Below, one piece after another: positions 13,289 to 49,955 of a DNA stretch of 64,000 nt (positions are counted from its first letter, which is position 1; every line of letters begins with the position of its first letter). Position numbers and translations under genes: made by a program. Source of the DNA: Actinomycetota bacterium (GTDB lineage: Bacteria; Actinomycetota; Aquicultoria; SURF-47). The notes beneath the pieces are model-generated. The model saw only the letters and a program-made list of their open reading frames with translations, searched no databases and was not told the DNA's origin. The DNA is taken from contig QZJE01000007.1 in NCBI GenBank assembly GCA_003599235.1, positions 16,585-80,584 on the forward strand, written 5' to 3'.

Positions 13289-13335
13289 ACTTTATGACTC
13301 CCTACTCACCACTCACTACTTACGACTTACGGTTT
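13289..13335 (-). repeat. Purine-rich tandem-heptamer leader element (minus-strand CCGTAAGTCGTAAGTAGTGAGTGGTGAGTAGGGAGTC) between argJ and argB; copy 1 of a near-identical pair
   Basis: A 32-nt core differs at only two C/T positions from the element at 48855..48893. It is built of GTRAGTNG repeats and ends in the argB RBS GGGAG. Confidence 0.55.
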
Positions 13336-14577: not shown

Positions 14578-14624
14578 TTTTTTCCTCCCTTATCCCTTAA
14601 CACTTATCCCTCATCCCTGAAGCA

Positions 14625-18058: not shown

Positions 18059-18118
18059 AGTAAAAATCCAATCAACGCCAAGTACCAGGGACTAAGGACT
18101 AAGTACCAAGTACCGTTT

Positions 18119-19159
18119 TTAGAATTGCTCCAAAAATCTCTGGTCGTTATCATAAAGCATCCTTATATCATCTAAGCCATATTTAAGCACTGCAACGCGT
18201 TCTACCCCCATACCAAAAGCAAAGCCGGTATACATATCAGAGTCTATCCCTCCATATTTTAAAACATTAGGGTCAACCATGCCGCAACCAAGTATTTCCA
18301 GCCAGCCGGTACCGCTACAGAGACGACAACCGCTGCCTTTGCATAGGCCGCAAGATACGTCTACCTCGGCACTAGGCTCAGTAAAAGGAAAATAATGCGG
18401 ACGCATTCTAATAGCCCTGTCTTCTCCAAATAGCTCTTTTACAAAAATTTCTAAGGTGCCCCGCAGGTCGCCAAAAGTTATTTTTTTATCAATAGCCAGT
18501 CCTTCTATCTGGTGAAACATGGGTACATGCGATGGATCAGCAACATCACGCCTGTAAGCTTTACCGGGAGCCAGTATATAAATAGGCGGTTTTTGTTTTT
18601 CCATTACCCGTATCTGTACAGGAGAGGTATGTGTTCTAAGAAGCACAGGCTCACCTTCCCTGTCAGGGTCGGTTAAACCTCTAATGTAGAAAGTGTCTTG
18701 TAAAGAACGAGCCGGATGGTCTTCAGGCGTGTTTAAGGCAGTGAAGTTGTAGAAATCAGTTTCTACCTCCGGACCTTCGGCTACCCTATATCCTAGCCCA
18801 AGAAATATCTGAATAGCTTCATCAATTATCTGGGTTACCAGGTGCTTTTTGCCATAATTTGGCTTTTTGCCTGGTAAACTCACATCTAATGCTTCTATTG
18901 CAGGCGGTTTAGCTTTAAGGCTTTTGAGCTTATCGTTGATAGCTGCTTCCAGCTTATTCTTTAACTCATTAGCCAGCTTACCCACAGCCGGACGCTCTTT
19001 AGGGTCTAGGTCACTTAAACCCCTTAATATCGAGGTAATCTCACCCTTACGGCCAAGATATTTTACCCTTATCTGCTCTATTTGTTCTTTATCAACTGCC
19101 TTATCCACAGCTTTTTCTGCTTGCCTATAGAGATTGTTTAATTTATCAACAGCCGGCAT
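18119..19159 (-). CDS. pheS: Phenylalanine--tRNA ligase alpha subunit
   Basis: 346 aa, class II aaRS core with PheS motifs (FPFTEPSAEVDV, GWLEILGCGMV). Confidence 0.9.
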   Translation of the reverse strand: MPAVDKLNNLYRQAEKAVDKAVDKEQIEQIRVKYLGRKGEITSILRGLSDLDPKERPAVGKLANELKNKLEAAINDKLKSLKAKPPAIEALDVSLPGKKPNYGKKHLVTQIIDEAIQIFLGLGYRVAEGPEVETDFYNFTALNTPEDHPARSLQDTFYIRGLTDPDREGEPVLLRTHTSPVQIRVMEKQKPPIYILAPGKAYRRDVADPSHVPMFHQIEGLAIDKKITFGDLRGTLEIFVKELFGEDRAIRMRPHYFPFTEPSAEVDVSCGLCKGSGCRLCSGTGWLEILGCGMVDPNVLKYGGIDSDMYTGFAFGMGVERVAVLKYGLDDIRMLYDNDQRFLEQF

Positions 19160-19242: not shown

Positions 19243-22200
19243 TTACAGAATAACTAATCTTGCTTTTGCAACTCTTAACTGCTTATTTCCAGCTCTGTCC
19301 GTAGCATACATAAAATATTCATAACTTCCTTTTCTTAATTTAGCTTTAGTCTTGATAATCCTTCTAACACCAATTTTTTGGCATCCAGTTTTTAACGTCT
19401 TGATTTGCTTTTTACCTTTCTTGATAATTATTTTCGTATAAAGTAATCCTCCGGTGAAAGCATCTCTTATCGTAGCCTTAAACTTAACAACCTTGCCTCT
19501 TCTTGCTCTTACATTGTATGCCTTAACCCTGGGCTTACTATTATCAACTACTACAAATAACTTTGTCACTTCTTCATCACCCATTGCATCCATGGCTTTA
19601 GCTGTAATAATATGCGGACCATTTCTTACTTTCCTTGTGTTCCAAATTATAGGATTTCTAAATCCAAAAGCCTTTTCATGGTTATCAAGAAATAACAAAA
19701 TGGTTTTGGGGACAAAGCCATCTAAACTTTCAATATTTATTTTAAAGCGGCCCCCAATATAGGAATTTGAAAGCCCTTTGAACTTTATTCTTGGTAATTT
19801 TTTAACATCCGTTTGCACCTCATTGCTATATGTACTTGCGTTACCAGCATTATCAACTGCCTTTACCCTAAAACTATAACTTTTCTTTTCCATCAGATCA
19901 GCAAATGTATAATTGTTCATATATATGGGCGTATTTACCTGCTGCCAATTGGTGTCGCCAATATTATATTCAAGTAAGTAATAGCTCATCCCAGATAAAC
20001 CTATCTGATCTTGTGATAATAACCAATTTAGATTAATAAAATAATCCCTAGTATGTTTAGGTATTTCTTGCAATAAAGGTGCACTTGGAGATGTCTTATC
20101 AATCTTTAATTCAATTTGTTTGTCTTGCTCTAGATTTCCAGCTTTATCTTGCGAACGATAAGCTAGGTTAGCAATTCCCTCTCGGTTGATACTAAATGCC
20201 GTATCGTAGACCTGCCAAGTAGCCCCGTTATCAAGGCTATACTCTGTCTTTTGTATTCCTAACCCATCAGCATTATCTTGAGCGCTTAAAGATACATTAA
20301 CATCTGAGGTATACCATCCATTATCTCCTTTGGCGCCTGAAATAATTATAGAAGTAACAGGAGAAGTTGTATCGGTAATCATAATCTTTGCCTCTAAGCT
20401 GCTCTCTAAATTACCTGTTTTGGCAACAACTTTAATGTTATGTAACCCCAATTTTTGTGACCCTAAATCATAACTAAATGATTGATATCCATTTACCGAA
20501 ACACCATTTGATATCACTTGGTTATTATCAATAATAACTTGAATATTTGCGCTAGATTGCTGGCTGGAAAAAACATCGTAGCTAAGCTTTACAGCATCGG
20601 CTGGGCAATATAACGGCTTGTCTGTTTTAATCGACGTTAGTGAAATACCTGTAATATCAAAATACTGGGTTCCACTATCCAAAACTACTCCGTTTTTGAC
20701 TATCCAATAACATAGTTTATGAATACCTAGTGTATTTGTATCCAGCTCTAAATCATAACTAAAGTCATTTTTGCCAGCGTTTAATTGCCTATTGGTATCC
20801 ATAACTTTTGTTTCTTTGCCGGTAGGATCATATATTGAAGCAATAAACTTGCCATCGAAAGCTGATTCACAATCAGCTTTGAAGTTTAGCTTTAACGTAT
20901 CTTGCGGATTATAAACACTCTTATCCAACGAAGAATCATTTATTGTTAAGTCGAGACTGTCGACATCAATGAAGATTTGCCCACTTTCACCATCTAAACT
21001 GTAATCGACGGGATAGGTTCCGCCCTTAAGTTCCTGCGGCAATTGGAAGTTAAAGGAAGTATCGCCAGAAATCGTCAGGTCTTTAATATAATTAGGTGCA
21101 TTAACTTTTAAAGTGCCTGGTTTGCTTGATTTTACTTCTATATTTACAGTGTCTCCAGGATTATAAACGCTTTTATCAGCAATCAAGCTTAAAGTATTGT
21201 TCTCTTGCCTTGCGTAAAGACTGTTTAGATATAATGCCCTGCCGGTACTTGCATATACTCCATAGGAGATTTTCTCCTCACCCTTATTAAGTGGAATATC
21301 TAAAGTAACTTGCTTGCTTCCATTAAGAATAAAGTTATCTGTTTTAGCTTCATTGTCACCGGATGATGCTTTCGCATAAACTTCAATTTCAGGCAACGTG
21401 CTTTCGTTAATAATGTCTAGCGTAATAAATGCATGGTCGCCTACCATATATACATCTTTATTAAGAGTAGCTTCTGTATTTATTTTGATACCCTTGATTT
21501 GGTAATCAATAGTTCTTTGCTCTTGACCTGCTAAATTATAAATTGCAGGATAACTTTTTTCCTCTAGATCGATAGGTGTGTTAAAAATAACCTGAATTTC
21601 TTTTTCTTCTCCAGGTTGAATATATTCGTACTTTTTATCGGTAAAAATACCGGTTGAATCGAAATCTAATTCTGCTTGAGCTTCGATGTTGCCAGTATTT
21701 TTAACCTTAAAATTAAAGGTAGCTTGTTCGCCAGTAGTAAAGCTAAGGTTTTGAGGCTCCTGGGTTATAGTAAAATGTGCAGGCTTAATTTCGACTGGGA
21801 TACTAGTGTTAGCTAAAACCGTACCATCAACTCCAATGGCTTCAACTAAAATATCATGCCTGCCCGGTGTTGCCGCCGCTGTTCGTAAGGCTGAATCGGT
21901 ATTTTTGCTTTCGCCGGCAGCAACTTCTACCTCGATTTCTGTAGAATCGAAAGTAGCGCCAGTCTTTAACTTCCCACAAAATGAACCAAATCCGCCATTT
22001 GTTAGCTTAGTAGTGAATGTGATTTTGCCATCTGGTGTTGGAGTTAGATTAAAACTCGTATTTAAACTAATATCGTTTTCTTTAAGCACCTTTACTGAGC
22101 TACTACCGGAAAATAGCGATGATTGATAGGCTAAATAATAAGTACCTGCATTTTGGGGACTAAACGTAACTGTACTATCATATACATTTCCTTTCGGAAC

Positions 22201-25200
22201 ATAAACGCTTTTGATTACAGATTCATTATTGAGACTAAAAGCAACGTCAAAAGAGCTGTCTATTAAGCCTGAGTTGGTAATACTAAAAGGTATCTCAATA
22301 ATTTTTCCTTGGCCATAGTACTCTTTTTGATTAAGTGCAATGTCGTCTTTTTCTCCAAAAGACACAGTTTTTGTTTGAGTTAAAGTAACATCTCCTGTTA
22401 GTTCTGCTTTAAACTCCGTATTCTTATTAATAGCAACCGAATAATCGACAATTTTTTGCTCGCCTGGCTGCAGAGTAATATTTTCTTGCTTTAGAATTCC
22501 ATTGTTATCTGAAAAAGCGAGGTCGCCACTAAACTCAATATCAGCAGCATTTTTAATAGTAGCGGTTAAGACAAAGGGGCTTATCCCGACCATCGAAGGA
22601 GCTTCAAAAGTTAACTCTGCTTTAGGCTGGATTATTTTTACCGACTCGTCGACAGTAGCATCAACAAACGTAGCTTTAAGATTAAAACTATCAGCTGCAG
22701 TAGTTGTGCAAGAAAAAGGCTTACTTTCGCCAGATGATAGATAAGAAATATTTTCTGTATAAATTACTTCCTGATTTTTATATATATTTAGCACTTTGTT
22801 TTCCAGTGGCAACTCTGCACTATTCTTTAATTGACCAGTAATAGTTATTGTTTCATTTGGCTTAAAGGCTTTTTTGTCAGCATTTAGAGATAACTCTGTT
22901 TTGCCTGGAAAGATATAGAAAGGATAGATACTCTTGGCAATTGTTTGACCGTTGCTGGATTTCAAAGTCTCTTGTAGATACAACTTACCTGTTGCGTCTA
23001 TTGAGCCTATTGCTTCACTGATATTTGATGTTTCATTAGGCGCTAGACTGATAGGCATTTGTTTTTGCCAGAATGTTTCTTTTGGTGATCCAGGATTAAA
23101 CAAATATACGCTAGAAGTCCCATTTTCATCTTCTTGCCAGACAACATTATTGCCCGAAACACTAGGAGAATATTGGTCTGAAGAGTCAGAAGTAACTCTG
23201 AACTCCGTTCTTGTTTCTAGATCATAACCGTAAACATCTTTATTTCCGTTTCGATTATCAGTCCAAGCAATCATATTCCCGTCTATAGTTGGTTCGGTTT
23301 GGTCGGAAGCATTACTGGTAATTCGCTGTTCTTTTTGAGTTGTAATACCGTATACATAAATATCCCAATTGCCATTTCTATTATCTTGATAAACGATTGT
23401 ATCCCCTGATATTGAAGGTAAAAGCTGCTCAAAGCTATCACTAGTTAAATTGCGCCTTGTGTTGGTAATAGTATTGAGTAAATAAATATCATCATTAAAA
23501 CTCCAAACAATATTGTTATTATCTATAGATGGAGAAAGGCCTAATCCAATCCCCCTCAACTCTCCTGTTAACATGTTGAATGTAGTAATTTCACCAAAAA
23601 AATCTGCCCAAACAACCGTATCTTCATAAATATCTGGATCTATACAAGGAGATTGGTAGGAATTACTTAGTTCCCTCATTTTATTGGTTATTAGGTCATA
23701 TGATATAATTTCAAGCCCGCCACCATTAGTTCCCCCTGACCAGACCATCATATCGCCCGATATTGCCAGTTTATTGTCACCTAAGAGTGGTTCCATACAG
23801 ATACCGGTATCTATTCTTCGTTTCTCTTTCATTTGCAAATCATAAACACACAAGCTATTAGATAAATCTGAAGACTCAGCCCAAATTGCCCTATTGTTGT
23901 CTACGACAGGCATTACTTGCTCTGAAACACTGGTTCCCATAGATGCATTGCTATTAACTTGGCTTGCTGTATTATCGTCAATGTCATACATGAAAATATC
24001 AGCATTGCCGTTTCTGTAGTCTTCCCATACTAGTATTTCGCCTTGTACATCTGGTGATATCTGCATCGCCCCTGAGGAATCTATTCTTTGGGTTGTTTTA
24101 GTCTCAATATCATAAACACATACTTTCCATCCATATGGCATATCCTCAGTTGAACAATCTGTCCAAACAACCTTATCATCCGACAAACAAGGAGTTGAGG
24201 GTTCATAAAATGATAAATGCTGTACTTCTGCAATCCTTTCTTCCGTTCCTGAAAGAAAGTCATACAAATACAAATAGTGCTTGTTATCTTCCGTTCTAAA
24301 CCACATAGCTTTATTATTTGTAATCGCTAATTTCTCATAGTTAGCATAACCACATGAGTAATCACTGCTTATTTGTGATGCAGATTTTGACTCTAAATCG
24401 TACATAACTACGCTGGGTTTTGAGGTTCGATTATCGACAAAAAGTAATCTATTTCCAGAGATAGCTGGTTTATTTTGGTTATTATAATAATCAGGCCATA
24501 ACACTTCCTCTGTTTTAGTAACTAAATCAAAAATGCATACTTTGTTTACAAAGCCCATGGATCTGATACCTACTACTCGATTACCTGAAATTACCGCATC
24601 GTTATAGCTGTAAGGCAGCTTGTATTGACCTTTATTAGCCAAATCATAGACATATATAGAATTGTTTTCATTCCACAAAATGTTATTTTCAAAGATCTGG
24701 ATATCTGAAATAAAATCACTGGTAGATGCAGCTACTTTACTTTCCTCTCTACTTCCAAAATCATACAAATAAATCTCATCCCTGCTACTGCGATTATCTA
24801 CCCAAACCACTTTGTTCTGCCATACTGCAGGGTCTCTTTGTTTTGCTAGTTGTGGGCCACAATCCAGTTTTGTTTTTGGGCCTGCCATTATTCCTAATCC
24901 GTCTTTGAATACTTGTAAGCTTAAAGATCCATTGTCAACTTGGTTGGAACCATTAATTATGTTGGTTAGACTGTTAGCTATTTGGCCATGTAAATAGGCA
25001 GTTTTATCTGTCCTAACAATCATCTCAGCATTTGCACCATCTATAAATATCTTTTCGTAAATCTTAGCTTTCTCGCCAGTAGAAAGATTAGTAAAATTTG
25101 CCTTTAAATAATAATCCCCTCTAACAACCTCTTGTGGAATACTAAAATTGATACTTTGCTCTTCTCCAGCTTTGACACTACTAGCTCCTGACTGGATGTT

Positions 25201-28200
25201 TAGGATATCTTGCCCAAAAGAACCATGTAAGTTTATTTCATATATATAGTCCGTATCAACACCGCCAGTATTTTCTAAATTCACCGTAACATCATCACCA
25301 GGATGGTAATTGCCATCCGATAAATCGGTTTGCAATAATGCGGCTGGGGTATATATTTTGCAATCAGTGCTCGTAAAACTAGTTCCTATCTGTAAAGAAA
25401 CACGAACATTGTGTTGTCCGGGTAGCAAATCCTCGCTTAGTTCCACAGGGATACTTAATGGAGTAACCGAATTTGATTTTGAGAACAACTGATATTGTTG
25501 TAAATAATTGTCATCGATTGCAAAAGATACTACGACATTCTCATAATCGAAACTACCGTCGTTAACTATATCTATGGGCCAATTAACAAAATCTCTTATC
25601 TTAAAGATATTCTTTTGCTGTTTGGAAAACACTCTTGCAGATGAAGAAATGGTACTCGAATAGAGGGGGCTGTTATCAATTGAGTAATTGAATTTGTAAT
25701 TGCCCAGTTCTACCTCTGGGAAATTAGGATAAAAATCAATAATTTTCGTCTCTCTACCTATAACAATTGGTTTACTCTCACTAAATAACTCAATATTCAA
25801 AGGGTTAATGACTGAGAGGTTTATTTCACCATCATAATAAGCACCCTCATTACCAAAAGTAATCTGTGTTGAATTGCGCCCTACGTGTAAACTTGGAATG
25901 TTTTGATTATTTACTTTTATGTCTGGTTTACAGAATATTTTTATTTTATTAATTGACTTGTTTTTTAAAGATCTATTAATTAGTATTTCAGTGTTAATTT
26001 GGTAATTTCCTGTTTTAGTTGATATATCTTTAAGAATTAATTCGTCCGAAGCAACATACAAATCATTGGCATTTAAAATAATTGGCCGAGTTATTGATTT
26101 AATAACCTTATTATCAGGATCAGTTATTTTCGTTAATAAATTGCATACCAAGCTGTAGCCGTAAGGGTTAGAAATTTGATTTGTCAAAGTCATGTTTTCG
26201 GATATATCGAAAGCATCTTTATTAGTCGTTTGCTTCATTTCTAAATCAGGGAAAAAAGAGAGGATTTCCTTGACACAAGTAGACGAGCAACTATCATCAA
26301 TAGACTTAGCCGAAAGACAAAACAACTCGTTACTAGCTATGTTAGTTGCTATGAAACCCACAACTGCACTTTGTTCTGCCTTAATGAGTACAGTATCCTC
26401 TAAATGATCAATCTGGGTGCCTGCATATCTTTTTAGATATTTTACATTTATCCATGTATCATGTTCGCTATTGTTGTAAACCGTTGCAGTAACTGGTACT
26501 GAGCAACCCTGAGGATAGAATTTATTAGGGTCGTTGATGCTAATACTTATTTTAGATGGGATATTGACTCCCTCTTGTGGTTCAATAGAGGAAAATCTTT
26601 TCCCTTCAGATTGGGGCTGTATTATCTCATCATTAACCCCATGTAATTCATAATCGATATAGTTAATTCCTAAATTATTAGATATTGGATTGCTCTCATA
26701 TTCAATACTTGTTGTTTCTCCAGCATCAAGATTTATATCAACAACCCTATTTGCTACTGGCTTTCTATCCCTATTAGTTAATATAAGCTTCACTTTTTTG
26801 GCCGAATACTTTGTTAAGTTTTTTATGTATTGTGAAACAGCTAGCGCTTCATTGGCTTTTACAACTTGAATGTTTTCATTTGGGTTCTTTGCCCAGGATA
26901 TTATGTCTTCAAATAATGTTCTTTCAGAGGATGATATTGAACGCATCCCGTAAGACCAATCTAGCATTGATGAAGTAACAATAATCATTCCCTTATTGTA
27001 TGGATAAGCGACAATATCAGGCATATTATTTGCAACTCTCATCGACAGTATTTCAGAGTTGCTGGGGCAGTTATATAAATAACCGTCAACCGGTAAATTT
27101 AAGACCGTGCTAGTTTGCCCCGAAAAAATTGGATGAATTTTTGATATTCTTGTTGAATCACCGTAACAGCTAATGTCTTCACGCCAGCCTGCTCCGCTAA
27201 TATTGCCAGGTAAAGCATTAAAATAGCGGCCGTATTGTTGGTCGAAGCAAATAATTGTCCCGCCTTCTTCTGCACATTTTTTGAGCTTTTCTTTAAATAC
27301 TTCGGAGGTATCTAGGCCTGTTAAACCTCCTGTTGGAATTATTAGGATTTGATTGCTCTTTGAGGAAGTAGGATCAAACTCTTCCGGAGTTACATCTATA
27401 TAGGGCTCGTTTATGTTATCTAAGAACTTTCTATCGGCAAAATAAAACCCCGTTTTCAGTAATTGGATATCGGGTGTTGCCTTCCAGTCGGCACTTATTT
27501 GTAAAGCATTGTTATTGATATCCCTGCTTAAATTACTAATTACCTTTTCTTGATTATCTAATTCTTCTTTACTGGCACCGCTTCCTTGAAGTACTTGATA
27601 TTTTTCTAGTTCATCAAGCATCCGCTTGGATTTAAGAAAGCTGTTAAGTGTACCTTTTTTAACAGCTAACCGTAAAAATTTATTCATCTCTTGTTTTAAT
27701 GATGTGAAGTCCGTGTTTACAATACTGGAACTAGAGTAGTTATCATCAGGATGATCATTTCCCGGATGGTCCAGAAGATGGTTAGAATAAACAAAATCCT
27801 CTATTAAACTCTTTACCGAGCCAATAGCCGCAGGCGCTAACTCATCTAAATACCATTTATTTACAGCTTCACCATCTTCCCCGCTTAAATCGTACGGATA
27901 TAAACCAAGTGGAAAATATTCAACCCAAGTTTGTCGGAAAGGAGATAATGTTAGATTAGTGAAGCTGTTGTGTAATTGAAAATCATAGTCCGCGGTGCGC
28001 CATAAGCTTCTGTCAAAAGTATAGTAAGCCATAGATCTAAGACTTAATGAACCACTTGGACGTGTTGAATTTTCCCAATGTGCTTTGAAGTAATCTTCTG
28101 TACTATCCCCACCGATAATAGAACCATGCGGTTTTGAATGAACATGAGATGGCGAGGCCATGTCTTCAAGTAAATGAGCAGCCCTACCTAATGAATAAAA

Positions 28201-28542
28201 TGCATTACTGACCATACCTTTACTGGCTAAATTATCAGCCTCATCCTTGTTAGTGTTAAACCTGCGGAGTGCCGTTAAATAAGTGTCTCCTAACCACCCT
28301 TGGCCAGTATAAGGATTATATCCATGATACATCCACCAAGCTGCCTGATCTTCATCAGAAGAACCATCAGCTAATTTTTGCTTGTTTGATCTTACAATCT
28401 CCGAGCTTACATAATCAGCAGCAATTGAAGTCATATTCTTGTGAATGCCAGGATCATGAGCTTTGACTTTGTTGGTCAAGATAATAGGCATAATTAAGAT
28501 GATTATTAATATTGCAAAAGCCTTTAAAATTATACTTTTCAT
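19243..28542 (-). CDS. Giant secreted/cell-surface multidomain protein (3099 aa)
   Basis: Single uninterrupted 9.3-kb ORF. Residues 1-25 form a signal peptide/TM. Residues ~28-270 (nt ~27732..28461) resemble Bacillus cereus Zn-dependent PC-PLC (AFYSLGRAAHLLEDMASPSHVHS against AFFYLGLSLHYLGDVNQPMHAAN). Residues ~390-560 are an unknown alpha/beta domain. Residues ~570-1230 and ~1850-2730 carry many CARDB/Ig-like beta-sandwich repeats. Residues ~1235-1815 (nt ~23100..24840) hold about 14 PD40 beta-propeller repeats (xVWxDxRNGNxDIYxYDL). Residues ~2735-2815 are a Big/OmpL47-type Ig-like domain (GWYTSDVNVSL...TEYSLDNGATWQ). Residues ~2818-2912 are an FN3 domain. The C-terminal ~90 residues form a lysine/arginine-rich tail. 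Confidence 0.8.
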   Translation of the reverse strand: MKSIILKAFAILIIILIMPIILTNKVKAHDPGIHKNMTSIAADYVSSEIVRSNKQKLADGSSDEDQAAWWMYHGYNPYTGQGWLGDTYLTALRRFNTNKDEADNLASKGMVSNAFYSLGRAAHLLEDMASPSHVHSKPHGSIIGGDSTEDYFKAHWENSTRPSGSLSLRSMAYYTFDRSLWRTADYDFQLHNSFTNLTLSPFRQTWVEYFPLGLYPYDLSGEDGEAVNKWYLDELAPAAIGSVKSLIEDFVYSNHLLDHPGNDHPDDNYSSSSIVNTDFTSLKQEMNKFLRLAVKKGTLNSFLKSKRMLDELEKYQVLQGSGASKEELDNQEKVISNLSRDINNNALQISADWKATPDIQLLKTGFYFADRKFLDNINEPYIDVTPEEFDPTSSKSNQILIIPTGGLTGLDTSEVFKEKLKKCAEEGGTIICFDQQYGRYFNALPGNISGAGWREDISCYGDSTRISKIHPIFSGQTSTVLNLPVDGYLYNCPSNSEILSMRVANNMPDIVAYPYNKGMIIVTSSMLDWSYGMRSISSSERTLFEDIISWAKNPNENIQVVKANEALAVSQYIKNLTKYSAKKVKLILTNRDRKPVANRVVDINLDAGETTSIEYESNPISNNLGINYIDYELHGVNDEIIQPQSEGKRFSSIEPQEGVNIPSKISISINDPNKFYPQGCSVPVTATVYNNSEHDTWINVKYLKRYAGTQIDHLEDTVLIKAEQSAVVGFIATNIASNELFCLSAKSIDDSCSSTCVKEILSFFPDLEMKQTTNKDAFDISENMTLTNQISNPYGYSLVCNLLTKITDPDNKVIKSITRPIILNANDLYVASDELILKDISTKTGNYQINTEILINRSLKNKSINKIKIFCKPDIKVNNQNIPSLHVGRNSTQITFGNEGAYYDGEINLSVINPLNIELFSESKPIVIGRETKIIDFYPNFPEVELGNYKFNYSIDNSPLYSSTISSSARVFSKQQKNIFKIRDFVNWPIDIVNDGSFDYENVVVSFAIDDNYLQQYQLFSKSNSVTPLSIPVELSEDLLPGQHNVRVSLQIGTSFTSTDCKIYTPAALLQTDLSDGNYHPGDDVTVNLENTGGVDTDYIYEINLHGSFGQDILNIQSGASSVKAGEEQSINFSIPQEVVRGDYYLKANFTNLSTGEKAKIYEKIFIDGANAEMIVRTDKTAYLHGQIANSLTNIINGSNQVDNGSLSLQVFKDGLGIMAGPKTKLDCGPQLAKQRDPAVWQNKVVWVDNRSSRDEIYLYDFGSREESKVAASTSDFISDIQIFENNILWNENNSIYVYDLANKGQYKLPYSYNDAVISGNRVVGIRSMGFVNKVCIFDLVTKTEEVLWPDYYNNQNKPAISGNRLLFVDNRTSKPSVVMYDLESKSASQISSDYSCGYANYEKLAITNNKAMWFRTEDNKHYLYLYDFLSGTEERIAEVQHLSFYEPSTPCLSDDKVVWTDCSTEDMPYGWKVCVYDIETKTTQRIDSSGAMQISPDVQGEILVWEDYRNGNADIFMYDIDDNTASQVNSNASMGTSVSEQVMPVVDNNRAIWAESSDLSNSLCVYDLQMKEKRRIDTGICMEPLLGDNKLAISGDMMVWSGGTNGGGLEIISYDLITNKMRELSNSYQSPCIDPDIYEDTVVWADFFGEITTFNMLTGELRGIGLGLSPSIDNNNIVWSFNDDIYLLNTITNTRRNLTSDSFEQLLPSISGDTIVYQDNRNGNWDIYVYGITTQKEQRITSNASDQTEPTIDGNMIAWTDNRNGNKDVYGYDLETRTEFRVTSDSSDQYSPSVSGNNVVWQEDENGTSSVYLFNPGSPKETFWQKQMPISLAPNETSNISEAIGSIDATGKLYLQETLKSSNGQTIAKSIYPFYIFPGKTELSLNADKKAFKPNETITITGQLKNSAELPLENKVLNIYKNQEVIYTENISYLSSGESKPFSCTTTAADSFNLKATFVDATVDESVKIIQPKAELTFEAPSMVGISPFVLTATIKNAADIEFSGDLAFSDNNGILKQENITLQPGEQKIVDYSVAINKNTEFKAELTGDVTLTQTKTVSFGEKDDIALNQKEYYGQGKIIEIPFSITNSGLIDSSFDVAFSLNNESVIKSVYVPKGNVYDSTVTFSPQNAGTYYLAYQSSLFSGSSSVKVLKENDISLNTSFNLTPTPDGKITFTTKLTNGGFGSFCGKLKTGATFDSTEIEVEVAAGESKNTDSALRTAAATPGRHDILVEAIGVDGTVLANTSIPVEIKPAHFTITQEPQNLSFTTGEQATFNFKVKNTGNIEAQAELDFDSTGIFTDKKYEYIQPGEEKEIQVIFNTPIDLEEKSYPAIYNLAGQEQRTIDYQIKGIKINTEATLNKDVYMVGDHAFITLDIINESTLPEIEVYAKASSGDNEAKTDNFILNGSKQVTLDIPLNKGEEKISYGVYASTGRALYLNSLYARQENNTLSLIADKSVYNPGDTVNIEVKSSKPGTLKVNAPNYIKDLTISGDTSFNFQLPQELKGGTYPVDYSLDGESGQIFIDVDSLDLTINDSSLDKSVYNPQDTLKLNFKADCESAFDGKFIASIYDPTGKETKVMDTNRQLNAGKNDFSYDLELDTNTLGIHKLCYWIVKNGVVLDSGTQYFDITGISLTSIKTDKPLYCPADAVKLSYDVFSSQQSSANIQVIIDNNQVISNGVSVNGYQSFSYDLGSQKLGLHNIKVVAKTGNLESSLEAKIMITDTTSPVTSIIISGAKGDNGWYTSDVNVSLSAQDNADGLGIQKTEYSLDNGATWQVYDTAFSINREGIANLAYRSQDKAGNLEQDKQIELKIDKTSPSAPLLQEIPKHTRDYFINLNWLLSQDQIGLSGMSYYLLEYNIGDTNWQQVNTPIYMNNYTFADLMEKKSYSFRVKAVDNAGNASTYSNEVQTDVKKLPRIKFKGLSNSYIGGRFKINIESLDGFVPKTILLFLDNHEKAFGFRNPIIWNTRKVRNGPHIITAKAMDAMGDEEVTKLFVVVDNSKPRVKAYNVRARRGKVVKFKATIRDAFTGGLLYTKIIIKKGKKQIKTLKTGCQKIGVRRIIKTKAKLRKGSYEYFMYATDRAGNKQLRVAKARLVIL

Positions 28543-28999: not shown

Positions 29000-30460
29000 C
29001 TATGCCAGCTCGATAGCCTTTAGCAAGGCTTTGGCTTTGTTGATGGATTCTTTGTATTCGGCCTTGGGATCCGAATCATAAACTATCCCCGCGCCGGCTT
29101 GGATGTAGGCAGTGGAATCTTTAATCAATATAGTGCGAATAGCAATACAGGTATCTAAATCGCCTGAATAACTAAAATAGCCAATGGCTCCAGCATATGG
29201 TCCTCTTAGTGTTGGTTCCAGCTCATCTATTATTTCCATGGCCCTGATTTTAGGCGCTCCCGATACTGTGCCTGCCGGAAAAACGCTTCTTAGAGCATCA
29301 AAAGCATTCTTGTCCTTTTCAAGCTTGCCGACCACGTTACTAACCATATGCATAACATGGGAATACTTCTCGACAAACATAAAGTCGGTTACTTCAACAG
29401 TGCCTGGCTCTGATACTCTGCCTAAGTCATTTCTTCCTAAATCTACCAGCATCAGGTGCTCGGCTTTCTCTTTTTCATCATTTAGCAGCTCTATTTCAAA
29501 CTTCGCATCTTCTGCTGCGTCAATACCCCGCCTTCTGGTGCCGGCAATCGGACGTGTTACAACATCATAACCCTCAACCTTTACTAGAGGTTCAGGGGAT
29601 GAGCCTACTAATTTAAAACCATCGAACTTTAAGTAGTACATATATGGTGAGGGATTTAGGGTCCTAAGTACTCTGTACACATCAAAGGATGGAACCTCTA
29701 TCTTGGCTTCAAAGCGCTGCGAAAGAACCACTTGGATGATATCACCAGCTACAATATAGTCTTTGGCTTTTTCTACCATATCGATAAATTGCTGTTCAGA
29801 GAGGTTAGAGGAAATATTAACTTCTTTTTTATTGGAAAAATCTTTTATTTGAACAGAAGGGATGCTTCGGCTTAACTCACCGATTATTTTGTCTATTTTC
29901 TTAAGTGTCTGGTTGTATACTTCTTCTACGTCACCCTTAATGTGAGCATTAACCACCACTTTTATTTTGTGCTTTAGGTGATCGAAAACCAGAAGATTAT
30001 CGGTGAATACAAAGATAGTCTCCGGCACATCTAAGTCGGATTTGCCGCTTTTAGGAATATCCTCAAAATAACGGATATTATCATAGCCCAGATAACCAAC
30101 CGCTCCTCCTTGAAATGGCGGCAATCCCTCGATATGAGCCGGTTTGTAGGGAGATAAAAGCTCCTTTATGGTAACCAAAGGGTCAACTACATTATCAATA
30201 ACCTTATTAACCTGGCCTTTTACCTTAGCTTTTCTATTACCAATAGTTACCACCAGATAAGGATTATTGCCTAGAAAAGAATAACGGGCATACCTTTGAG
30301 CCCCCTCTACACTTTCTAATAAAAAGGAGTAATCGGATTCTCCTAATTTTAGAAAAGCAGATACCGGTGTTTCTAAATCTGCCACAATCTCCCGGTAGAC
30401 CGGTATTAGGTTATGTTCTTTGGCTAGCTTCTTAAAGTCCTTTAGTGTAGGTGAGTACAT
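29000..30460 (-). CDS. Chorismate-binding enzyme: anthranilate synthase component I (TrpE) or aminodeoxychorismate synthase (PabB) family
   Basis: 486 aa with PIAGTRRRG...LMLVDLGRNDLGRV...GAPKIRAMEIIDELE...GYFSYSGDLDTCIAIRT motifs typical of TrpE/PabB. No glutamine amidotransferase partner or other trp genes are adjacent. It lies at the 3' end of the his operon. Confidence 0.75.
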   Translation of the reverse strand: MYSPTLKDFKKLAKEHNLIPVYREIVADLETPVSAFLKLGESDYSFLLESVEGAQRYARYSFLGNNPYLVVTIGNRKAKVKGQVNKVIDNVVDPLVTIKELLSPYKPAHIEGLPPFQGGAVGYLGYDNIRYFEDIPKSGKSDLDVPETIFVFTDNLLVFDHLKHKIKVVVNAHIKGDVEEVYNQTLKKIDKIIGELSRSIPSVQIKDFSNKKEVNISSNLSEQQFIDMVEKAKDYIVAGDIIQVVLSQRFEAKIEVPSFDVYRVLRTLNPSPYMYYLKFDGFKLVGSSPEPLVKVEGYDVVTRPIAGTRRRGIDAAEDAKFEIELLNDEKEKAEHLMLVDLGRNDLGRVSEPGTVEVTDFMFVEKYSHVMHMVSNVVGKLEKDKNAFDALRSVFPAGTVSGAPKIRAMEIIDELEPTLRGPYAGAIGYFSYSGDLDTCIAIRTILIKDSTAYIQAGAGIVYDSDPKAEYKESINKAKALLKAIELA

Positions 30461-31104
30461 TATTTCCAGCGCCTTCGCAGTTCGTTTTCTACTTCATCGA
30501 AGCTGATATCTTTCTCTGCTAATAAAACCAGTAAGTGGTATAGCAGGTCAGCTACTTCCCAAATTACCTCTTTGTTTTCCTTAATCATAGCCGCTTCGAT
30601 GACCTCTTCTGATTCCTCATCAACTTTAGCCAATATCTTATCTAGGCCTTCTGCTAAAAGTTTGGCAGTATAAGATCCTTCCGGTTTATCCTTTTTGCGT
30701 TGCAGAATAACAGAATATAGCTGCTCAATTACACTGCCGTCGACAGCTGAAGTAAGCTCTGTAATTTCTTCAGAGCCAAGGACTCCTTTTTTTAGCTCCC
30801 GGTGAAAACAAGTTCTTTCTCCTGTATGGCAAGCTGGTCCTTTGGGCTTAGCCATAATTAACAATGTATCGTTATCGCAATCATACAAAATGTCTTTTAC
30901 CAACTGATAATTGCCAGAGGTCTCCCCTTTTAACCAGAGTTTCCCGCGACTTCTGCTAAAAAACCAAGCTTTGCCGCTCTCTAAGGTTTTTTCCAAGGCT
31001 TCTTTATTCATATAAGCCATCATCAGGACATCTTTAGTTTTATAATCCTGAACTATGGCCGGAATTAACCCATCTTTATCGAATTTTAGATTATTAATGC
31101 TCAT
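30460..31104 (-). CDS. hisI: Bifunctional phosphoribosyl-AMP cyclohydrolase / phosphoribosyl-ATP pyrophosphatase
   Basis: 214 aa. The N-terminal half is HisI (metal-binding CHTGERTCF region) and the C-terminal half is HisE (MazG-like). GGAG RBS upstream. Confidence 0.85.
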
Positions 31105-31114
31105 GTCAACTCCA

Positions 31115-31257
31115 AGTAATTGTTTGTGCTTTCAAAAACGTGTCGCAGGCCTAGCTAGCATGGTTTCCCGACTTGTCGGGAATAGCTGGCCGAGACTCGA
31201 GCAGCATTTTCTCGCCGGGAAAATGACTGCGTATTTTAGAAAGCACAAACAATTACT
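31115..31257 (-). ncRNA. GC-rich ~143-nt structured element between hisF and hisIE, closed by a perfect 19-bp inverted repeat (AGTAATTGTTTGTGCTTTC / GAAAGCACAAACAATTACT)
   Basis: The arms at 31115..31133 and 31239..31257 are exact reverse complements. The ~100-nt interior is ~60% GC (against ~38% around it) and has internal hairpins (TTCCCGAC-TTGT-GTCGGGAA, GCTGGCCGAG/CTCGAGCAGC). The right arm overlaps the hisF stop codon, and the left arm ends about 5 nt before the hisIE RBS. Confidence 0.4.
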
Positions 31258-32086
31258 ATAATCTAACTGCAATTCCCTTATCCCTCATTGCCTCTTTAAC
31301 CTGCCTAATCGATAGCTCTCCATAGTGAAACAAAGACGCTGCCAGTACCGCATCGGCATCTGATTCTTTTACTACTTCGCTAAAATGCTCTAGGGTTCCT
31401 GCTCCGCCGGATGCAATAACCGGCACATTAACCGCTCTAGTTACTTGCTTAGTTAATTCTAGCTCATAACCATCTTTAGTGCCGTCCCTATCCATGCTGG
31501 TTAGCAAAATCTCTCCGGCTCCAAAAGAAACTACCTTCTTTGCCCACTCAATGGCATCAAGACCCGTGGGTGTACGCCCACCGTTGATGTAGACCTGATA
31601 CCAGTCCTCGGGGTCCTGTCGCTGGGGAATCCCGCCGTGCTCAGCAAGCTTGCGACGCGGCGGGAGCCCTTCTTCGCGCCACCCCTCGGCCTTTGCATCT
31701 ATAGCCACCACAATGCACTGGCTACCAAACTTTCTGGCGCATTCTGTAATAATTGACGGGTCTTTAATGGCAGCTGTGTTGATGGCTACCTTATCACAGC
31801 CGGTTGCCAGCATCTTACGGACATCTTCAACTCCTCTTATTCCACCGCCTATTGTATATGGAATAAATACCTGTTCAGCTACCTTGCTAGCAACATCTAA
31901 CATGATATTGCGCTCCTCATGGGAGGCAGTAATGTCTAAAAAAACCAGCTCGTCAGCCCCTTCTTTGTCGTAGACAGAAGCAAGCTCTACCGGATCGCCG
32001 GCATCTCTGATATCAACAAAATTTATCCCTTTAACTACCCTGCCCTTATCAACATCAAGACAAGGAATAATACGCTTAGCTAGCAA
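31256..32086 (-). CDS. hisF: Imidazole glycerol phosphate synthase cyclase subunit
   Basis: 276 aa, (beta/alpha)8 HisF (IIPCLDV, ...SGGAG). It carries a ~20-aa GC-rich in-frame insertion ([30 protein letters not shown]) in the loop after AIDAK. Confidence 0.9.
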
Positions 32087-32801
32087 CTATTAATACATCT
32101 CCTAAATCTAGTTGTCCTTCATATAAAGCAGTCCCTATTATTGCCCCTTCTACTCCCAAGTACTCCAGCTTCCTAAGGTTTTTAATATCCTCAAGAGTAG
32201 TTATTCCTCCTGAAGCAATAATTGCCATATCTGTGACCTCTGTTACTTCTTGTAAAAGCGCAAGATTGGGACCCTTTTGCATGCCATCAGTTAAAATATC
32301 AGTTAGAACCAGCCTTTTTATCCCTTGGCTATTAAGTGACTTTACCAAATCAATTGTCTTTACCTCGGTTACACTTTGCCAGCCATCGACGGCAATTAAG
32401 CCGTTATTGCTATCAATGCTAGCAACAAGCTTTTCAGCACCAAAATACCTACGGACCTCTGATAATAAATCCCTGTTACGCACTATGCTAGTACCAAGAA
32501 TCACTCTTTGAACCCCTATTGAGAGGGCTTGCTCAATATATTTCATATTCCGCATTCCCCCGCCAAGCTGGATGGGAATATCTACAGCTTTAATAATATC
32601 TTCAGCTGAATCCAGATTAGCAGGCTTGCCATCCTTGGCCCCCTCTAAATCCACAACGTGCAGATATTTGGCGCCTTTAGACTGCCATTTAAGAGCCATT
32701 TTAACCGGATCCTCCCCATAGACCTTTTTCCGGTCATACTCCCCTTGTTTTAAGCGCACGCACTTGCCCTCTATTAAATCGATTGCCGGAAAGATAATCA
32801 T
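32076..32801 (-). CDS. hisA: ProFAR isomerase (1-(5-phosphoribosyl)-5-[(5-phosphoribosylamino)methylideneamino]imidazole-4-carboxamide isomerase)
   Basis: 241 aa, HisA TIM barrel (IIFPAIDL, ...ASGGI). Confidence 0.85.
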
Positions 32802-48854: not shown

Positions 48855-48893
48855 TTCTTCTCCTACTTACCACTTACTACTTACGACTTACGC
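48855..48893 (-). repeat. Purine-rich tandem-heptamer leader element (minus-strand GCGTAAGTCGTAAGTAGTAAGTGGTAAGTAGGAGAAG) between rfbA and rfbC; copy 2
   Basis: Shares CGTAAGTCGTAAGTAGTRAGTGGTRAGTAGG with the argJ/argB junction element. It lies directly between the rfbA stop and the rfbC start. Confidence 0.55.
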
Positions 48894-49955
48894 TTAAATT
48901 CCTACCTTACTATTGTCGCCTACCATCAACCGATAGGCTTTAGGTTTTTTGTTGCTTTTTACCACCTCAACGTTCTTGCCTATCAGGCTATCACTTAGTC
49001 GGTTGATAGATTTAACCGCACTGCCCTCAAGAACAATGCTATGCTCAATCTCGCTGTCGATTACCTGGCAATCATAATATATCGAGGTAAAGGGACCTAT
49101 GTATGAATGCTCTATTACCGTGTTTTTGCCGATAACCGCCGGGCCTCTGATAGTGCTATTAATTACCCTTGCTCCTTCATCTATAAAAACCTTGCCTACT
49201 ATCTTTGATTTATTATCCACTTGGCCCAAACAACCTTCTTTAAGGTCTTCTAGAATCATCCTGTTAGCCTCTAGCATATCTTCTAGCTTGCCGGTATCTT
49301 TCCACCATCCTTGGATAATATGAGGCTCAACCGTTAACCCTTTATCAATCATATACTGGATAGCATCAGTTATCTCTAACTCATCGCGCCAGGAAGGCTT
49401 AATAGCATTTACAGCCTCAAAAATATTCTTATCAAACATATAAACACCGACTAAGGCTAGGTTAGAAACAGGGGTTTTGGGCTTTTCGACAAGTTTTTTA
49501 ACAGTATTATCGCCGTTTAGCTCCGCCACGCCGAACCTTTTGGGGTCTTCTACTTCGGCTAATAAAATCTGAGCATTAGGTTTATTGCTTTTAAACTCAT
49601 CTACAAGGGTTTTAATACCATCCTTTATCAAATTATCGCCTAAAAACATAACAAACTCTTCGTTGCCTAACTCTTTTTGGGCAATTTTAACCGCATGAGC
49701 CAGCCCCAAAGGCCTTTCTTGATAAACATAAGAGACACTTACACCAAATTGTTCCCCGTTGCCGATAGCTTCTTTTATTTCATCTTGGGTATCGCCAACT
49801 ATTATGATAACTTCTTTTATTCCAGCCTCAGCGATAGAATGCAGGCAATAGTAAAGCACCGGCTTGTTGGCTACCGGAACTAACTGTTTTGCACTGGTGT
49901 GAGTTATCGGCCGCAAGCGAGTTCCTTCCCCGCCTGCTAAAATAAGGGCTTTCAT
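48894..49955 (-). CDS. rfbA: Glucose-1-phosphate thymidylyltransferase, long form with C-terminal left-handed beta-helix
   Basis: 353 aa. The N-terminal nucleotidyltransferase has GGxGTRL (MKALILAGGEGTRLRP) and the C-terminus has hexapeptide repeats, the archaeal/Gram-positive long RmlA type. Confidence 0.85.
   Translation of the reverse strand: MKALILAGGEGTRLRPITHTSAKQLVPVANKPVLYYCLHSIAEAGIKEVIIIVGDTQDEIKEAIGNGEQFGVSVSYVYQERPLGLAHAVKIAQKELGNEEFVMFLGDNLIKDGIKTLVDEFKSNKPNAQILLAEVEDPKRFGVAELNGDNTVKKLVEKPKTPVSNLALVGVYMFDKNIFEAVNAIKPSWRDELEITDAIQYMIDKGLTVEPHIIQGWWKDTGKLEDMLEANRMILEDLKEGCLGQVDNKSKIVGKVFIDEGARVINSTIRGPAVIGKNTVIEHSYIGPFTSIYYDCQVIDSEIEHSIVLEGSAVKSINRLSDSLIGKNVEVVKSNKKPKAYRLMVGDNSKVGI

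What the first reader, a model, noticed from the sequence alone, without database searches (positions are those of the whole stretch)
31115..31257. GC-rich 143-nt element closed by a perfect 19-bp inverted repeat between hisF and hisIE
AGTAATTGTTTGTGCTTTC (31115..31133) and its exact reverse complement (31239..31257) bracket ~100 nt of ~60% GC sequence with internal hairpins, in a ~38% GC genome. The right arm overlaps the hisF stop codon and the left arm ends just before the hisIE RBS. It could be a structured RNA (processing or attenuation element within the his mRNA, possibly metabolite-sensing) or a miniature inverted-repeat insertion. HisF/HisH produce AICAR (ZMP) and HisG uses PRPP, so a ligand-sensing role is conceivable but unproven.
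Basis: seen in the sequence. Interest (0 to 1): 0.65.

Follow-up and report, generated by a model that had tools for sequence, protein, structure and literature searches.

The report
Orphan palindromic insertion inside his operon
A 143-base DNA palindrome is inserted between two histidine-biosynthesis genes of an uncultured actinobacterium; it is real and lineage-specific, looks like a small inserted (MITE-like) element rather than a metabolite sensor, and is of modest interest.

Summary
A perfect 19-bp inverted repeat (24 bp with one mismatch) at 31115-31133 / 31239-31257 closes two internal hairpins. It lies between hisF and hisIE on the minus strand, overlaps the hisF stop codon and ends one base before the hisIE Shine-Dalgarno. 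It is the longest local inverted repeat in the window and exceeds chance.

The ligand-sensing reading is not supported. No Rfam family matches on either strand, there is no terminator, and the element does not sequester the ribosome-binding site. Pairing is almost purely Watson-Crick on both strands, which is a DNA-level palindrome with no RNA strand signature.

No relative examined carries the element. The hisF-hisI(E) junction in relatives is a 4-nt overlap, or holds unrelated hairpin spacers, a mini-ORF or a toxin-antitoxin cassette. So this is a lineage-specific insertion at a permissive junction.

No second copy was found in the window, in fetched loci, in three public DNA collections (arm 19-mer) or by protein-level searches. 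The MAG itself is not in the searchable DNA collections, so the multicopy (MITE) test stays open.

Best reading: an orphan MITE-like palindromic insertion, co-transcribed, giving a long double-stranded stem that is a plausible RNase III or mRNA-stability site.

The parts
31239..31257 (-). 5' arm in mRNA sense (right arm on the + strand). It is a perfect 19-nt inverted repeat, and its first two bases (AG) complete the hisF stop codon TAG.
31115..31133 (-). 3' arm in mRNA sense (left arm on the + strand). It is the perfect 19-nt partner and ends 1 nt before the hisIE Shine-Dalgarno.
31115..31257 (-). Whole 143-nt compound palindrome. A 24-bp closing stem (19 bp, one U-U mismatch, then 4-5 bp) encloses a three-way junction. 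MFE is -64.2 kcal/mol in mRNA sense and -68.9 on the + strand.
31201..31230 (-). Internal hairpin A: GCAG-U-CAUUUUC / loop CCGGCGA / GAAAAUG-CUGC.
31142..31196 (-). Internal hairpin B. It is a GC-rich extended stem with an apical UUCCCGA-CAAG-UCGGGAA hairpin and a 7-nt asymmetric internal loop.
31105..31114 (-). 10-nt tail UGGAGUUGAC between the palindrome and the hisIE start codon. It carries the SD GGAG (31113-31110). It is either part of the inserted DNA or an older short spacer.
31253..31258 (-). Tandem in-frame stops TAG TAA ending hisF at the same residue (…VRL) as in relatives.
31256..32086 (-). hisF (imidazole glycerol phosphate synthase cyclase subunit), the upstream gene.
30460..31104 (-). 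hisIE (bifunctional PR-AMP cyclohydrolase / PR-ATP diphosphatase), the downstream gene.

Best explanation
The element is a lineage-specific insertion of about 143-153 bp of non-coding, compound-palindromic DNA into the hisF/hisIE junction of a tightly packed hisZ-G-D-(HAD)-B-H-A-F-IE-trpE operon. The host is an uncultured, low-GC, deep-branching actinobacterium.

In form it is MITE-like: small, closed by terminal inverted repeats, without coding capacity, and with an empty site in relatives. At present it is an orphan.

Shown:
- The element is present here and absent from all relatives examined.
- HisF ends and HisIE starts at the same residues as in relatives. The inserted DNA therefore provides, or preserves, a stop (T + AG of the arm, then TAA) and an SD (GGAG) for independent initiation of hisIE.

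Inferred:
- The element has no promoter or terminator on the coding strand, so it is co-transcribed with the operon.
- In the mRNA it folds into a very stable three-way junction closed by about 24 bp of nearly perfect double-stranded RNA.
- That replaces translational coupling through an ATGA overlap with SD-dependent initiation.
- It also creates a stem long enough to be an RNase III substrate and/or a barrier to 3' exonucleases, as described for Correia/NEMIS and ERIC elements. This could set the relative stability of the hisZ…F and hisIE-trpE mRNA segments.
- It does not sense a ligand.
For: Reality and non-randomness of the inverted repeat.

Insertion status. Relatives L001/L002 and L003 (HisF 70-71% identical) have hisF/hisIE overlapping as ATGA, and L022 has the two genes abutting. 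Other relatives carry different, non-homologous junction contents:
- a 64-nt hairpin spacer in L021;
- a spacer of at least 101 nt with two GC hairpins in L025;
- a 143-nt AT-rich palindrome in L028/29;
- a 46-aa mini-ORF in L023/24 and L026/27;
- a 1.8-kb insert with a toxin-antitoxin module in L020.

The covariance model of the element finds no copy in any of these loci.

The HisF C-terminus and HisIE N-terminus are in register with relatives.

This is the only long spacer in an operon whose other junctions are overlaps or spacers of 37 nt or less.

Pairing is 54-56 Watson-Crick pairs and one G-U on each strand, so the palindrome is strand-symmetric. The core hairpins are significant on both strands, and the element also folds as ssDNA with z = -9.5.

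No Rfam family matches, there is no tRNA or tmRNA, no terminator is predicted, and no promoter is predicted on the coding strand within the spacer.

MITE properties and RNase III cleavage of Correia TIR stems in co-transcribed mRNAs are described in PMC2229807 and PMC10969869.
Against: No second copy was found anywhere:
- not in the 64-kb window by blastn-short or by the covariance model with filters off;
- not in 29 fetched loci;
- the arm 19-mer gives only single-arm chance hits in GTDB representative genomes, JGI metagenomes and IMG/VR;
- three core 17-21-mers are absent from IMG/VR;
- there is no blastn hit in plasmids or phages;
- six-frame peptides have no homologue among 5.8 G proteins, and the + frame ORF has none among 1.84 G representatives apart from two repeat-protein artefacts.

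No target-site duplication abuts the inverted repeats. Only an 'AT' flanks the 153-nt insert if the 10-nt SD tail is counted, and that could equally reflect the need to rebuild the stop and start codons.

No parent IS with matching ends was seen.

The core is GC-rich (51-60%), whereas bacterial MITEs are typically AT-rich.

RNase III cleavage, co-transcription and any effect on expression are untested.
Confidence: 0.55

Rival explanations
1. This is a selected intercistronic RNA device that is not mobile. A structured spacer was retained after hisF because it tunes the operon. It could act as an RNase III or other processing site, as a 3'-end stabiliser of the hisZ…F segment, or as a partial U-tract-less terminator. 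It would uncouple hisIE-trpE expression from the upstream his genes.
For: Four separate lineages carry non-homologous but significantly or visibly structured spacers at the same junction:
- the window element (z = -7.3);
- L025 (z = -5.0);
- L021 (z = -2.5);
- L028/29, with 54-nt arms.

The 24-bp stem meets the length expected for RNase III substrates (own knowledge). The stop codon and SD are neatly placed at the two feet of the stem.
Against: Three lineages do without any spacer. Others hold a mini-ORF or a toxin-antitoxin cassette at the junction, which fits a permissive insertion site better than a conserved need.

The structure shows no strand asymmetry or G-U enrichment that would indicate RNA-level selection. 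No terminator signature was found. There are no expression data.
Confidence: 0.2
2. This is a metabolite-sensing riboswitch or attenuator (ZMP/AICAR, PRPP, histidine or another ligand) controlling hisIE and trpE.
For: It is GC-enriched, strongly structured non-coding RNA inside a biosynthetic operon of an AT-rich genome. It has three-way-junction architecture.
Against: No match to ZTP, ykkC/PRPP or any other Rfam family at E<=10 on either strand.

There is no expression platform. No terminator is present. The SD lies outside the element, and its only predicted pairing is a weak, non-significant local hairpin with hisIE codons (z = -0.46).

The element is absent from all relatives, so there is no conservation or covariation. 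A perfect 19-bp closing helix and strand-symmetric pairing are atypical of aptamers.
Confidence: 0.03
3. The palindrome arose locally rather than by import. Candidates are template-switch or inverted-duplication events, or an internal-deletion footprint of a larger insert such as the cassette seen in L020. In either case it is not a transposable unit.
For: No target-site duplication, no other copy and no parent IS were found. The junction demonstrably accepts large inserts in a relative. The arms are AT-rich like the host (32% GC) while the core is not.
Against: No donor sequence for the arms or the core exists within the 64-kb window; the longest other match is 12 nt. There is no similarity to the L020 insert. 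A GC-rich core with two further perfect hairpins is hard to generate by a single template switch.
Confidence: 0.12
4. This is an assembly artefact or chimeric junction in the metagenome-assembled contig.
For: The source is a MAG, only one assembly of this population exists in the databases, and no reads could be examined.
Against: The element sits in the interior of an 81-kb contig. It is flanked by intact, syntenic, in-register genes, with a functional-looking stop and SD. Assembler hairpin artefacts normally occur at contig ends (own knowledge).
Confidence: 0.05
5. This is an independent feature on the + strand or at the DNA level. It could be an antisense or small RNA, or a protein-binding or recombination site such as an integron attC or a retron msr/msd.
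For: The + strand fold is slightly more stable (-68.9 vs -64.2 kcal/mol). A promoter-like TTTAGA-16-TATAAT (31235-31262, +) is formed at the right arm and hisF end.
Against: That promoter points outward into hisF, and the number of such sites is at chance level (3 found, 2.6 expected).

The arms lack the attC R''/R' cores RYYYAAC / GTTRRRY (read from the sequence). No integrase or reverse transcriptase gene is adjacent. No Rfam sRNA matches.
Confidence: 0.05

Closest known systems
Correia / NEMIS elements of Neisseria (bacterial MITEs)
   Same: Size is about 100-155 bp, with roughly 24-26-bp terminal inverted repeats and no coding capacity. They sit between genes and are co-transcribed, and the TIR stem in the transcript is cleaved by RNase III (PMC2229807, PMC10969869). 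The window element is 143 bp with 19/24-bp arms and lies inside an operon.
   Different: Correia elements occur in hundreds of copies, have TA target-site duplications and TA termini, are related to each other in sequence, and some carry IHF sites or promoters. Here only one copy is known and no TSD abuts the repeats. The core is GC-rich and forms two extra hairpins, and there is no sequence similarity to any known element.
ERIC/IRU and YPAL elements of enterobacteria
   Same: They are imperfect palindromes of about 127-168 bp inserted in transcribed intergenic regions, often right after stop codons. They change the stability of upstream versus downstream mRNA segments.
   Different: They are multicopy families with short TIRs (about 7 bp), and the reported mechanism is RNase E exposure. 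This element is a singleton with a long perfect stem.
REP / BIME extragenic palindromes
   Same: They are GC-rich hairpins in operon spacers that stabilise upstream mRNA against 3' exonucleases (own knowledge; mentioned in PMC3184786, abstract).
   Different: REPs are 20-40 nt single hairpins with a conserved GTAG head, occur in hundreds of copies, and are mobilised by RAYT transposases. None of these features is seen here.
RNase III-excised intervening sequences (IVS) of 23S rRNA
   Same: An insert of about 100-150 nt whose ends pair into a long stem, which RNase III cuts without re-ligation. The distribution is sporadic and lineage-specific (own knowledge).
   Different: They are located in rRNA helices, not in an mRNA spacer. 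No cleavage data exist here.
ZTP (pfl) and PRPP/ykkC-type riboswitches
   Same: They are structured RNA in a pathway that makes ZMP and consumes PRPP.
   Different: There is no covariance-model match, no conserved core, no expression platform and no phylogenetic conservation.

Membership tests
Bacterial MITE | Small (<500 bp, typically 100-200 bp) and non-coding | tested here: met
   The element is 143 bp. The only ORFs across it are 46 and 68 aa, overlap real genes, and have no homologues.
Bacterial MITE | Terminal inverted repeats (about 4-30 bp) | tested here: met
   19 bp perfect, or 24 bp with one mismatch.
Bacterial MITE | Flanking direct repeats (target-site duplication) | tested here: not met
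   The bases outside the arms are …GATTAT| and |TGGAGT…, with no duplication. An 'AT' repeat appears only if the 10-nt SD tail is counted as insert. The 2024 review notes that direct repeats decay in older copies.
Bacterial MITE | Multiple dispersed copies in the host genome | tested here: inconclusive
   There is no second copy in the 64-kb window or in any collection searched. The rest of the MAG is not in the searchable DNA collections: no locus showed both arms. Some MITEs have 1-22 copies per genome.
Bacterial MITE | Autonomous IS with matching terminal repeats | tested here: inconclusive
   No further arm match in the window. All 16 public arm matches are single arms in unrelated taxa. 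The only one inspected (L017) lies inside an ORF, and its second, weaker match is a direct rather than an inverted repeat.
Bacterial MITE | Empty site in related genomes | tested here: met
   L001/L002 and L003 have the ATGA overlap and L022 has abutting genes. These relatives are distant, however (HisF about 70% identical).
Bacterial MITE | AT-rich composition | tested here: not met
   The element is 46% GC and its core 51-60%, against 38.9% for the window.
Riboswitch (ZTP, PRPP/ykkC or other Rfam class) | Match to the family covariance model | tested here: not met
   No hits at gathering thresholds in the window. Only two chance-level hits (snoRNA, Caulobacter sRNA; E 2.8-3.7) at E<=10 in 31050-31320.
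Riboswitch (any class) | Conservation with covariation across genomes upstream of the regulated gene | tested here: not met
   Absent from all 10 distinct related loci examined. No homologue exists with which to build an alignment.
Riboswitch / attenuator | Expression platform (terminator/antiterminator or SD sequestration by the aptamer) | tested here: not met
   No terminator-like site. The SD is outside the element, and its local pairing is not significant.
RNase III-processed intercistronic stem | At least about 20 bp of near-perfect double-stranded RNA in a transcribed region | tested here: met
   19 bp, a U-U mismatch, then 4-5 bp, with pairing probability about 1.0. Transcription is inferred from the operon context.
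RNase III-processed intercistronic stem | Demonstrated cleavage, and presence of rnc in the host | not testable with these tools
REP/BIME | 20-40-nt GC-rich hairpin with a GTAG head, many copies, associated RAYT | tested here: not met
   The architecture and size differ, there is no GTAG head and only a single copy.
Integron attC site | R'' RYYYAAC and R' GTTRRRY core sites in an imperfect palindrome after a cassette ORF | tested here: not met
   The arms (AGTAATTGTTTGTGCTTTC and its complement) contain neither core in the required order (read). The context is a conserved his operon.
Intrinsic terminator | GC-rich hairpin followed by a U-tract | tested here: not met
   0 terminator-like sites in 30400-32200 on either strand.

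The most novel reading that the evidence does not exclude
The element is not junk but an orphan cis-acting RNA device, one of several non-homologous structured spacers that this clade has repeatedly recruited at the hisF-hisI(E) junction. Through RNase III or another processing step, or through an as yet unseen ligand or protein interaction at its GC-rich three-way junction, it would set the ratio of hisZ…F to hisIE-trpE expression. That would make this junction an example of convergent evolution of intra-operon RNA insulators.
Probability: 0.08. Interest if true: 0.5.

Novelty: new member of a known kind. Interest (0 to 1): 0.22.

Why it matters
If this is only an orphan palindromic insertion, its value is mainly as an annotation note. 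It shows how an operon with overlapping genes can absorb about 150 bp of foreign DNA when the insert leaves a stop codon on one side and a Shine-Dalgarno on the other.

The wider pattern could be more useful. The same junction carries unrelated hairpin spacers, a mini-ORF or a toxin-antitoxin cassette in different relatives. This marks it as a permissive or recurrently remodelled site in a poorly studied, deep-branching actinobacterial clade. That makes it a convenient natural experiment on translational coupling versus independent initiation and on intra-operon mRNA processing. It does not open a new riboswitch class.

Tried and rejected
- **Rfam.** The whole window at gathering thresholds and the locus at E<=10 gave nothing credible. 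ARAGORN found no tRNA or tmRNA.
- **Hammerhead, twister and other ribozyme cores.** I considered these by eye on the three-way junction and saw no CUGAUGA/GAAA-type core. Rfam agrees.
- **Terminator or attenuator.** None predicted.
- **SD sequestration.** A 10-bp pairing of UGGAGUUGAC with hisIE codons 12-15 appears in the ensemble. The hairpin is no better than shuffles (z = -0.46), so I rejected it as evidence.
- **Search for further copies.**
  - Window blastn-short and covariance model R1 with filters off found only the element itself. A hairpin-A-like hit at 4633-4662 has E = 0.095 and is chance-level.
  - The arm 19-mer in genome contigs gave 9 single-arm hits, in metagenome contigs 6 and in viral contigs 1. 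All are in unrelated taxa with no core similarity. The 24-nt match in L017 lies inside an ORF.
  - This spent the single genome and metagenome scans. A core-based pattern could not then be tried in those collections.
  - Core patterns in IMG/VR gave 0 hits.
  - Plasmid and phage blastn gave none.
  - A concatenated six-frame peptide query gave none.
  - phmmer of the + frame ORF gave two repeat-protein artefacts.
- **Recovering the host genome.** The exact HisF and HisIE proteins are not in the contig index, so other contigs of the MAG could not be read.
- **GC-rich in-frame insert in hisF.** I tested whether it is a related palindromic element. Its fold is not significant (z = -1.45) and there is no similarity, so I rejected it.
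- **Homology of relatives' spacers to the element.** Alignment and the covariance model both show none.

Full report
**1. What is in the sequence**

The stretch 31115-31257 is exactly as described. AGTAATTGTTTGTGCTTTC occurs at 31115-31133 and its perfect reverse complement at 31239-31257. These are the only two matches in the window, even allowing three mismatches. The arms extend inward to 24 nt with one mismatch.

This is the longest perfect inverted repeat with arms no more than 400 nt apart in the window. In 100 first-order Markov simulations of the window the longest such repeat averaged 12.7 nt and never exceeded 16 nt. The repeat is therefore not a chance feature.

The genes are on the minus strand. 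The operon reads hisZ-hisG-hisD-(HAD hydrolase)-hisB-hisH-hisA-hisF-[element]-hisIE-trpE, and each assignment except the HAD hydrolase is above its NCBIfam cut-off. All other junctions in this operon are overlaps or spacers of 37 nt or less. The 151-nt hisF-hisIE spacer is the exception.

In mRNA sense the sequence reads …GUU AGA UUA UAG UAA UUG…, so the AG of the hisF stop codon is the first two bases of the arm and a second in-frame stop follows. The other arm ends …CAAUUACU, followed by U-GGAG-UUGAC-AUG, which is the hisIE SD and start.

The 105 nt between the arms are 51% GC and the whole element is 46%; only the central ~84 nt reach 60%. The window is 38.9% GC. The spacer ties for the most GC-rich intergenic region but is not a dramatic outlier.

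**2. Structure**

As RNA in mRNA sense the 161-nt region folds at -64.8 kcal/mol (z = -7.3). As + strand RNA it folds at -69.9 kcal/mol (z = -9.65), and as ssDNA at -45.2 kcal/mol (z = -9.5).

The fold is a three-way junction. A roughly 24-bp closing helix encloses hairpin A (31201-31230) and a longer GC-rich hairpin B (31142-31196). The 95-nt core alone is significantly structured on both strands (z = -3.8 each).

Of the 55-57 predicted pairs, all but one on each strand are Watson-Crick. The same structure therefore forms on either strand. This is the signature of a DNA-level palindrome or a young insert, not of an RNA shaped by strand-specific selection.

**3. What it is not**

- Rfam 15 has no match at gathering thresholds anywhere in the window. 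At E<=10 in 31050-31320 there are only two chance-level hits, a snoRNA and a Caulobacter sRNA. ZTP, ykkC/PRPP and the ribozyme families are therefore not matched.
- There is no tRNA or tmRNA.
- No terminator-like site exists on either strand in 30400-32200, and no promoter-like site lies on the coding strand within the spacer.
- The element does not sequester the SD. In a 296-nt context the SD tends to pair with hisIE codons 12-15, but that hairpin is no better than shuffled sequence (z = -0.46).
- The arms lack integron attC core sites, and no integrase or reverse transcriptase gene is nearby.

**4. Where it comes from: comparison with relatives**

HisF is 100% identical to RJQ33008.1, annotated 'MAG: Actinobacteria/Actinomycetota bacterium', on an 81,295-bp contig. 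The next best HisF is only 73% identical, and named relatives include Candidatus Aquicultor and Candidatus Oleimmundimicrobium. No close relative exists in the databases.

I read the hisF-hisI(E) junction in ten distinct related loci:

| Loci | Junction state |
|---|---|
| L001/L002, L003 | 4-nt ATGA overlap |
| L022 | genes abut |
| L021 | 64-nt spacer with a small hairpin (z = -2.5) |
| L025 (closest HisF) | at least 101 nt with two perfect GC-rich hairpins (z = -5.0), then the contig ends |
| L028/L029 | 262-nt spacer containing a 143-nt AT-rich palindrome with 54-nt arms |
| L023/24, L026/27 | 46-aa mini-ORF; read in L023 it encodes a hydrophobic, membrane-like peptide |
| L020 | 1.8-kb insert with four genes, including a HigB-like toxin and an HTH protein |

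None of these is homologous to the window element, by blastn-short, alignment or the covariance model built from it.

HisF ends (…VRL) and HisIE begins at the same alignment positions as in the overlap-type relatives. The 151-154 nt are therefore extra DNA that leaves both reading frames intact.

If the ancestor had the ATGA overlap, the insert is 153 nt: the 143-nt palindrome plus the 10-nt SD-bearing tail, flanked by AT on both sides. If the ancestor already had a short SD-bearing spacer, the insert is the 143-nt palindrome alone, with no target-site duplication. The data do not decide between these.

**5. Search for other copies**

- The window has no second copy by blastn-short or by the covariance model with filters off. 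The next best hit, at 4633-4662, has E = 0.095.
- The exact arm 19-mer gave 9 loci in GTDB representative genomes, 6 in JGI metagenomes and 1 in IMG/VR. All are single arms in unrelated taxa with no core similarity, which is about the number expected by chance.
- Because no locus showed both arms, the host MAG itself is not in those collections. The genome-wide copy number could not be measured.
- Core 17-21-mers are absent from IMG/VR.
- Plasmid and phage blastn gave nothing.
- MITE copies are often mis-called as small ORFs. I therefore searched all six reading frames against 5.8 billion proteins, which include this MAG's own NCBI proteome, and found no hit at E<=10.
- I also searched the fully open + frame against 1.84 billion representatives. 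The two hits are both artefacts of internally repetitive proteins.

**6. Most likely explanation**

The best-supported reading is a lineage-specific insertion of a small, non-coding, compound-palindromic DNA element at a junction that this clade has remodelled repeatedly.

In form it resembles bacterial MITEs such as Correia/NEMIS (24-26-bp TIRs, 100-155 bp). Those elements are co-transcribed and their TIR stems are cleaved by RNase III (PMC2229807, PMC10969869).

What is shown:
- presence here and absence in the relatives examined;
- preserved reading frames;
- the stop codon and SD at the two feet of the stem;
- a strand-symmetric palindrome;
- no known RNA family.

What is inferred:
- co-transcription, because no promoter or terminator is present on the coding strand;
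- folding into a junction closed by about 24 bp in the mRNA;
- replacement of overlap-based translational coupling by SD-dependent initiation;
- a likely role as an RNase III target and/or a 3'-exonuclease barrier that would differentiate the stability of the upstream and downstream segments.

I put this at about 0.55.

The main rival (about 0.2) is that a structured spacer at this junction is itself selected. Four lineages have unrelated structured spacers there, which fits. Against it, three lineages have no spacer and others have ORFs at the junction, which fits a permissive site better.

The remaining rivals are local origin without mobility (about 0.12), an assembly artefact (about 0.05), a + strand or DNA-level function (about 0.05) and a riboswitch (about 0.03).

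**7. Membership and novelty**

MITE criteria met: size, terminal inverted repeats, no coding capacity, and an empty site in relatives.

MITE criteria not met: a target-site duplication abutting the repeats, and AT-richness.

MITE criteria inconclusive: multiple copies and a parent IS, because only 64 kb of the host genome could be searched.

I therefore describe it as MITE-like and do not file it as a member of any named family. No riboswitch criterion is met.

It is a new, orphan example of a known kind of thing: a palindromic intercistronic insertion. Interest is modest at 0.22. The wider pattern at this junction and the heptamer repeats noted below are arguably more curious than the element itself.

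Noticed in passing
window 4684-4713, 7345-7362, 12429-12454, 13302-13329, 14586-14618, 18078-18114, 48863-48896, 51814-51843: Many short intergenic spacers are filled by 3-5 tandem copies of heptanucleotides with different units (CTACCCC, CTTATCC, AACCACT, TCCCTTA, CCAAGTA, ACTTACG, AGACGTC). Most lie just upstream of start codons. They are reminiscent of cyanobacterial STRR heptamer repeats (own knowledge). Their function is unknown.
   Followed up: partly
window 13301-13331 and 48862-48892 (minus strand): A 31-nt purine-rich motif, CGTAAGTCGTAAGTAGTGAGTGGTGAGTAGG, occurs twice with 2 mismatches. Each copy lies directly before the SD and start codon of an unrelated gene, and none is expected by chance. 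It is a dispersed intergenic repeat made of the heptamers noted above.
   Followed up: partly
window 31590-31690 (inside hisF): hisF carries an in-frame insertion of about 25 aa ([28 protein letters not shown]) whose DNA is the most GC-rich stretch of the window (72% peak). The loop is hypervariable among relatives, with 0-46 extra residues and unrelated sequences. Its RNA fold is not significant (z = -1.45).
   Followed up: partly
L028 2377-2519 (also L029): A relative carries, at the same hisF-hisI junction, an unrelated 143-nt AT-rich palindrome with 54-nt arms (74% complementary) in a 262-nt spacer. This is a more typical MITE-like object.
   Followed up: partly
L025 821-921: In the closest HisF relative (73%), hisF is followed by at least 101 nt of non-coding sequence with two perfect GC-rich hairpins (GGCAAGC…GCTTGCC and GCCCCGCA…TGCGGGGC; z = -5.0). 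The sequence is unrelated to the window element, and the contig ends before the next gene.
   Followed up: partly
L020 3296-5139; L023 3352-3498, L024 3358-3498, L026/L027 2352-2492: Other relatives hold different content between hisF and hisIE. L020 has a 1.8-kb four-gene insert with a HigB-like toxin and an HTH protein. L023/24 and L026/27 have a 46-48-aa mini-ORF; read in L023 it encodes a hydrophobic, membrane-like peptide (MDFLITIVVFFVIGFAIMFG…).
   Followed up: no
window 19243-28542 (minus strand): A 3099-aa ORF with internal repeats of about 252-270 nt lies between trpE and the next downstream gene (18119..19159, 346 aa). In relatives L001 and L003 trpE is followed directly by pheS. It is probably a giant repeat-containing surface protein inserted in this lineage, but I did not analyse it.
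   Followed up: no
window 31235-31262 (+ strand): A promoter-like site, TTTAGA-16 nt-TATAAT (10/12 matches), is formed by the right arm plus the end of hisF. It points antisense into hisF. The number of such sites in the region is at chance level.
   Followed up: no
window 4633-4662: An intergenic hairpin (GCGGATTTTTC-CCAGCGT-GAAAAATACCGC) resembles hairpin A of the element in stem and loop (covariance model E = 0.095; sequence). It is probably a coincidence of A/T-run hairpins.
   Followed up: partly
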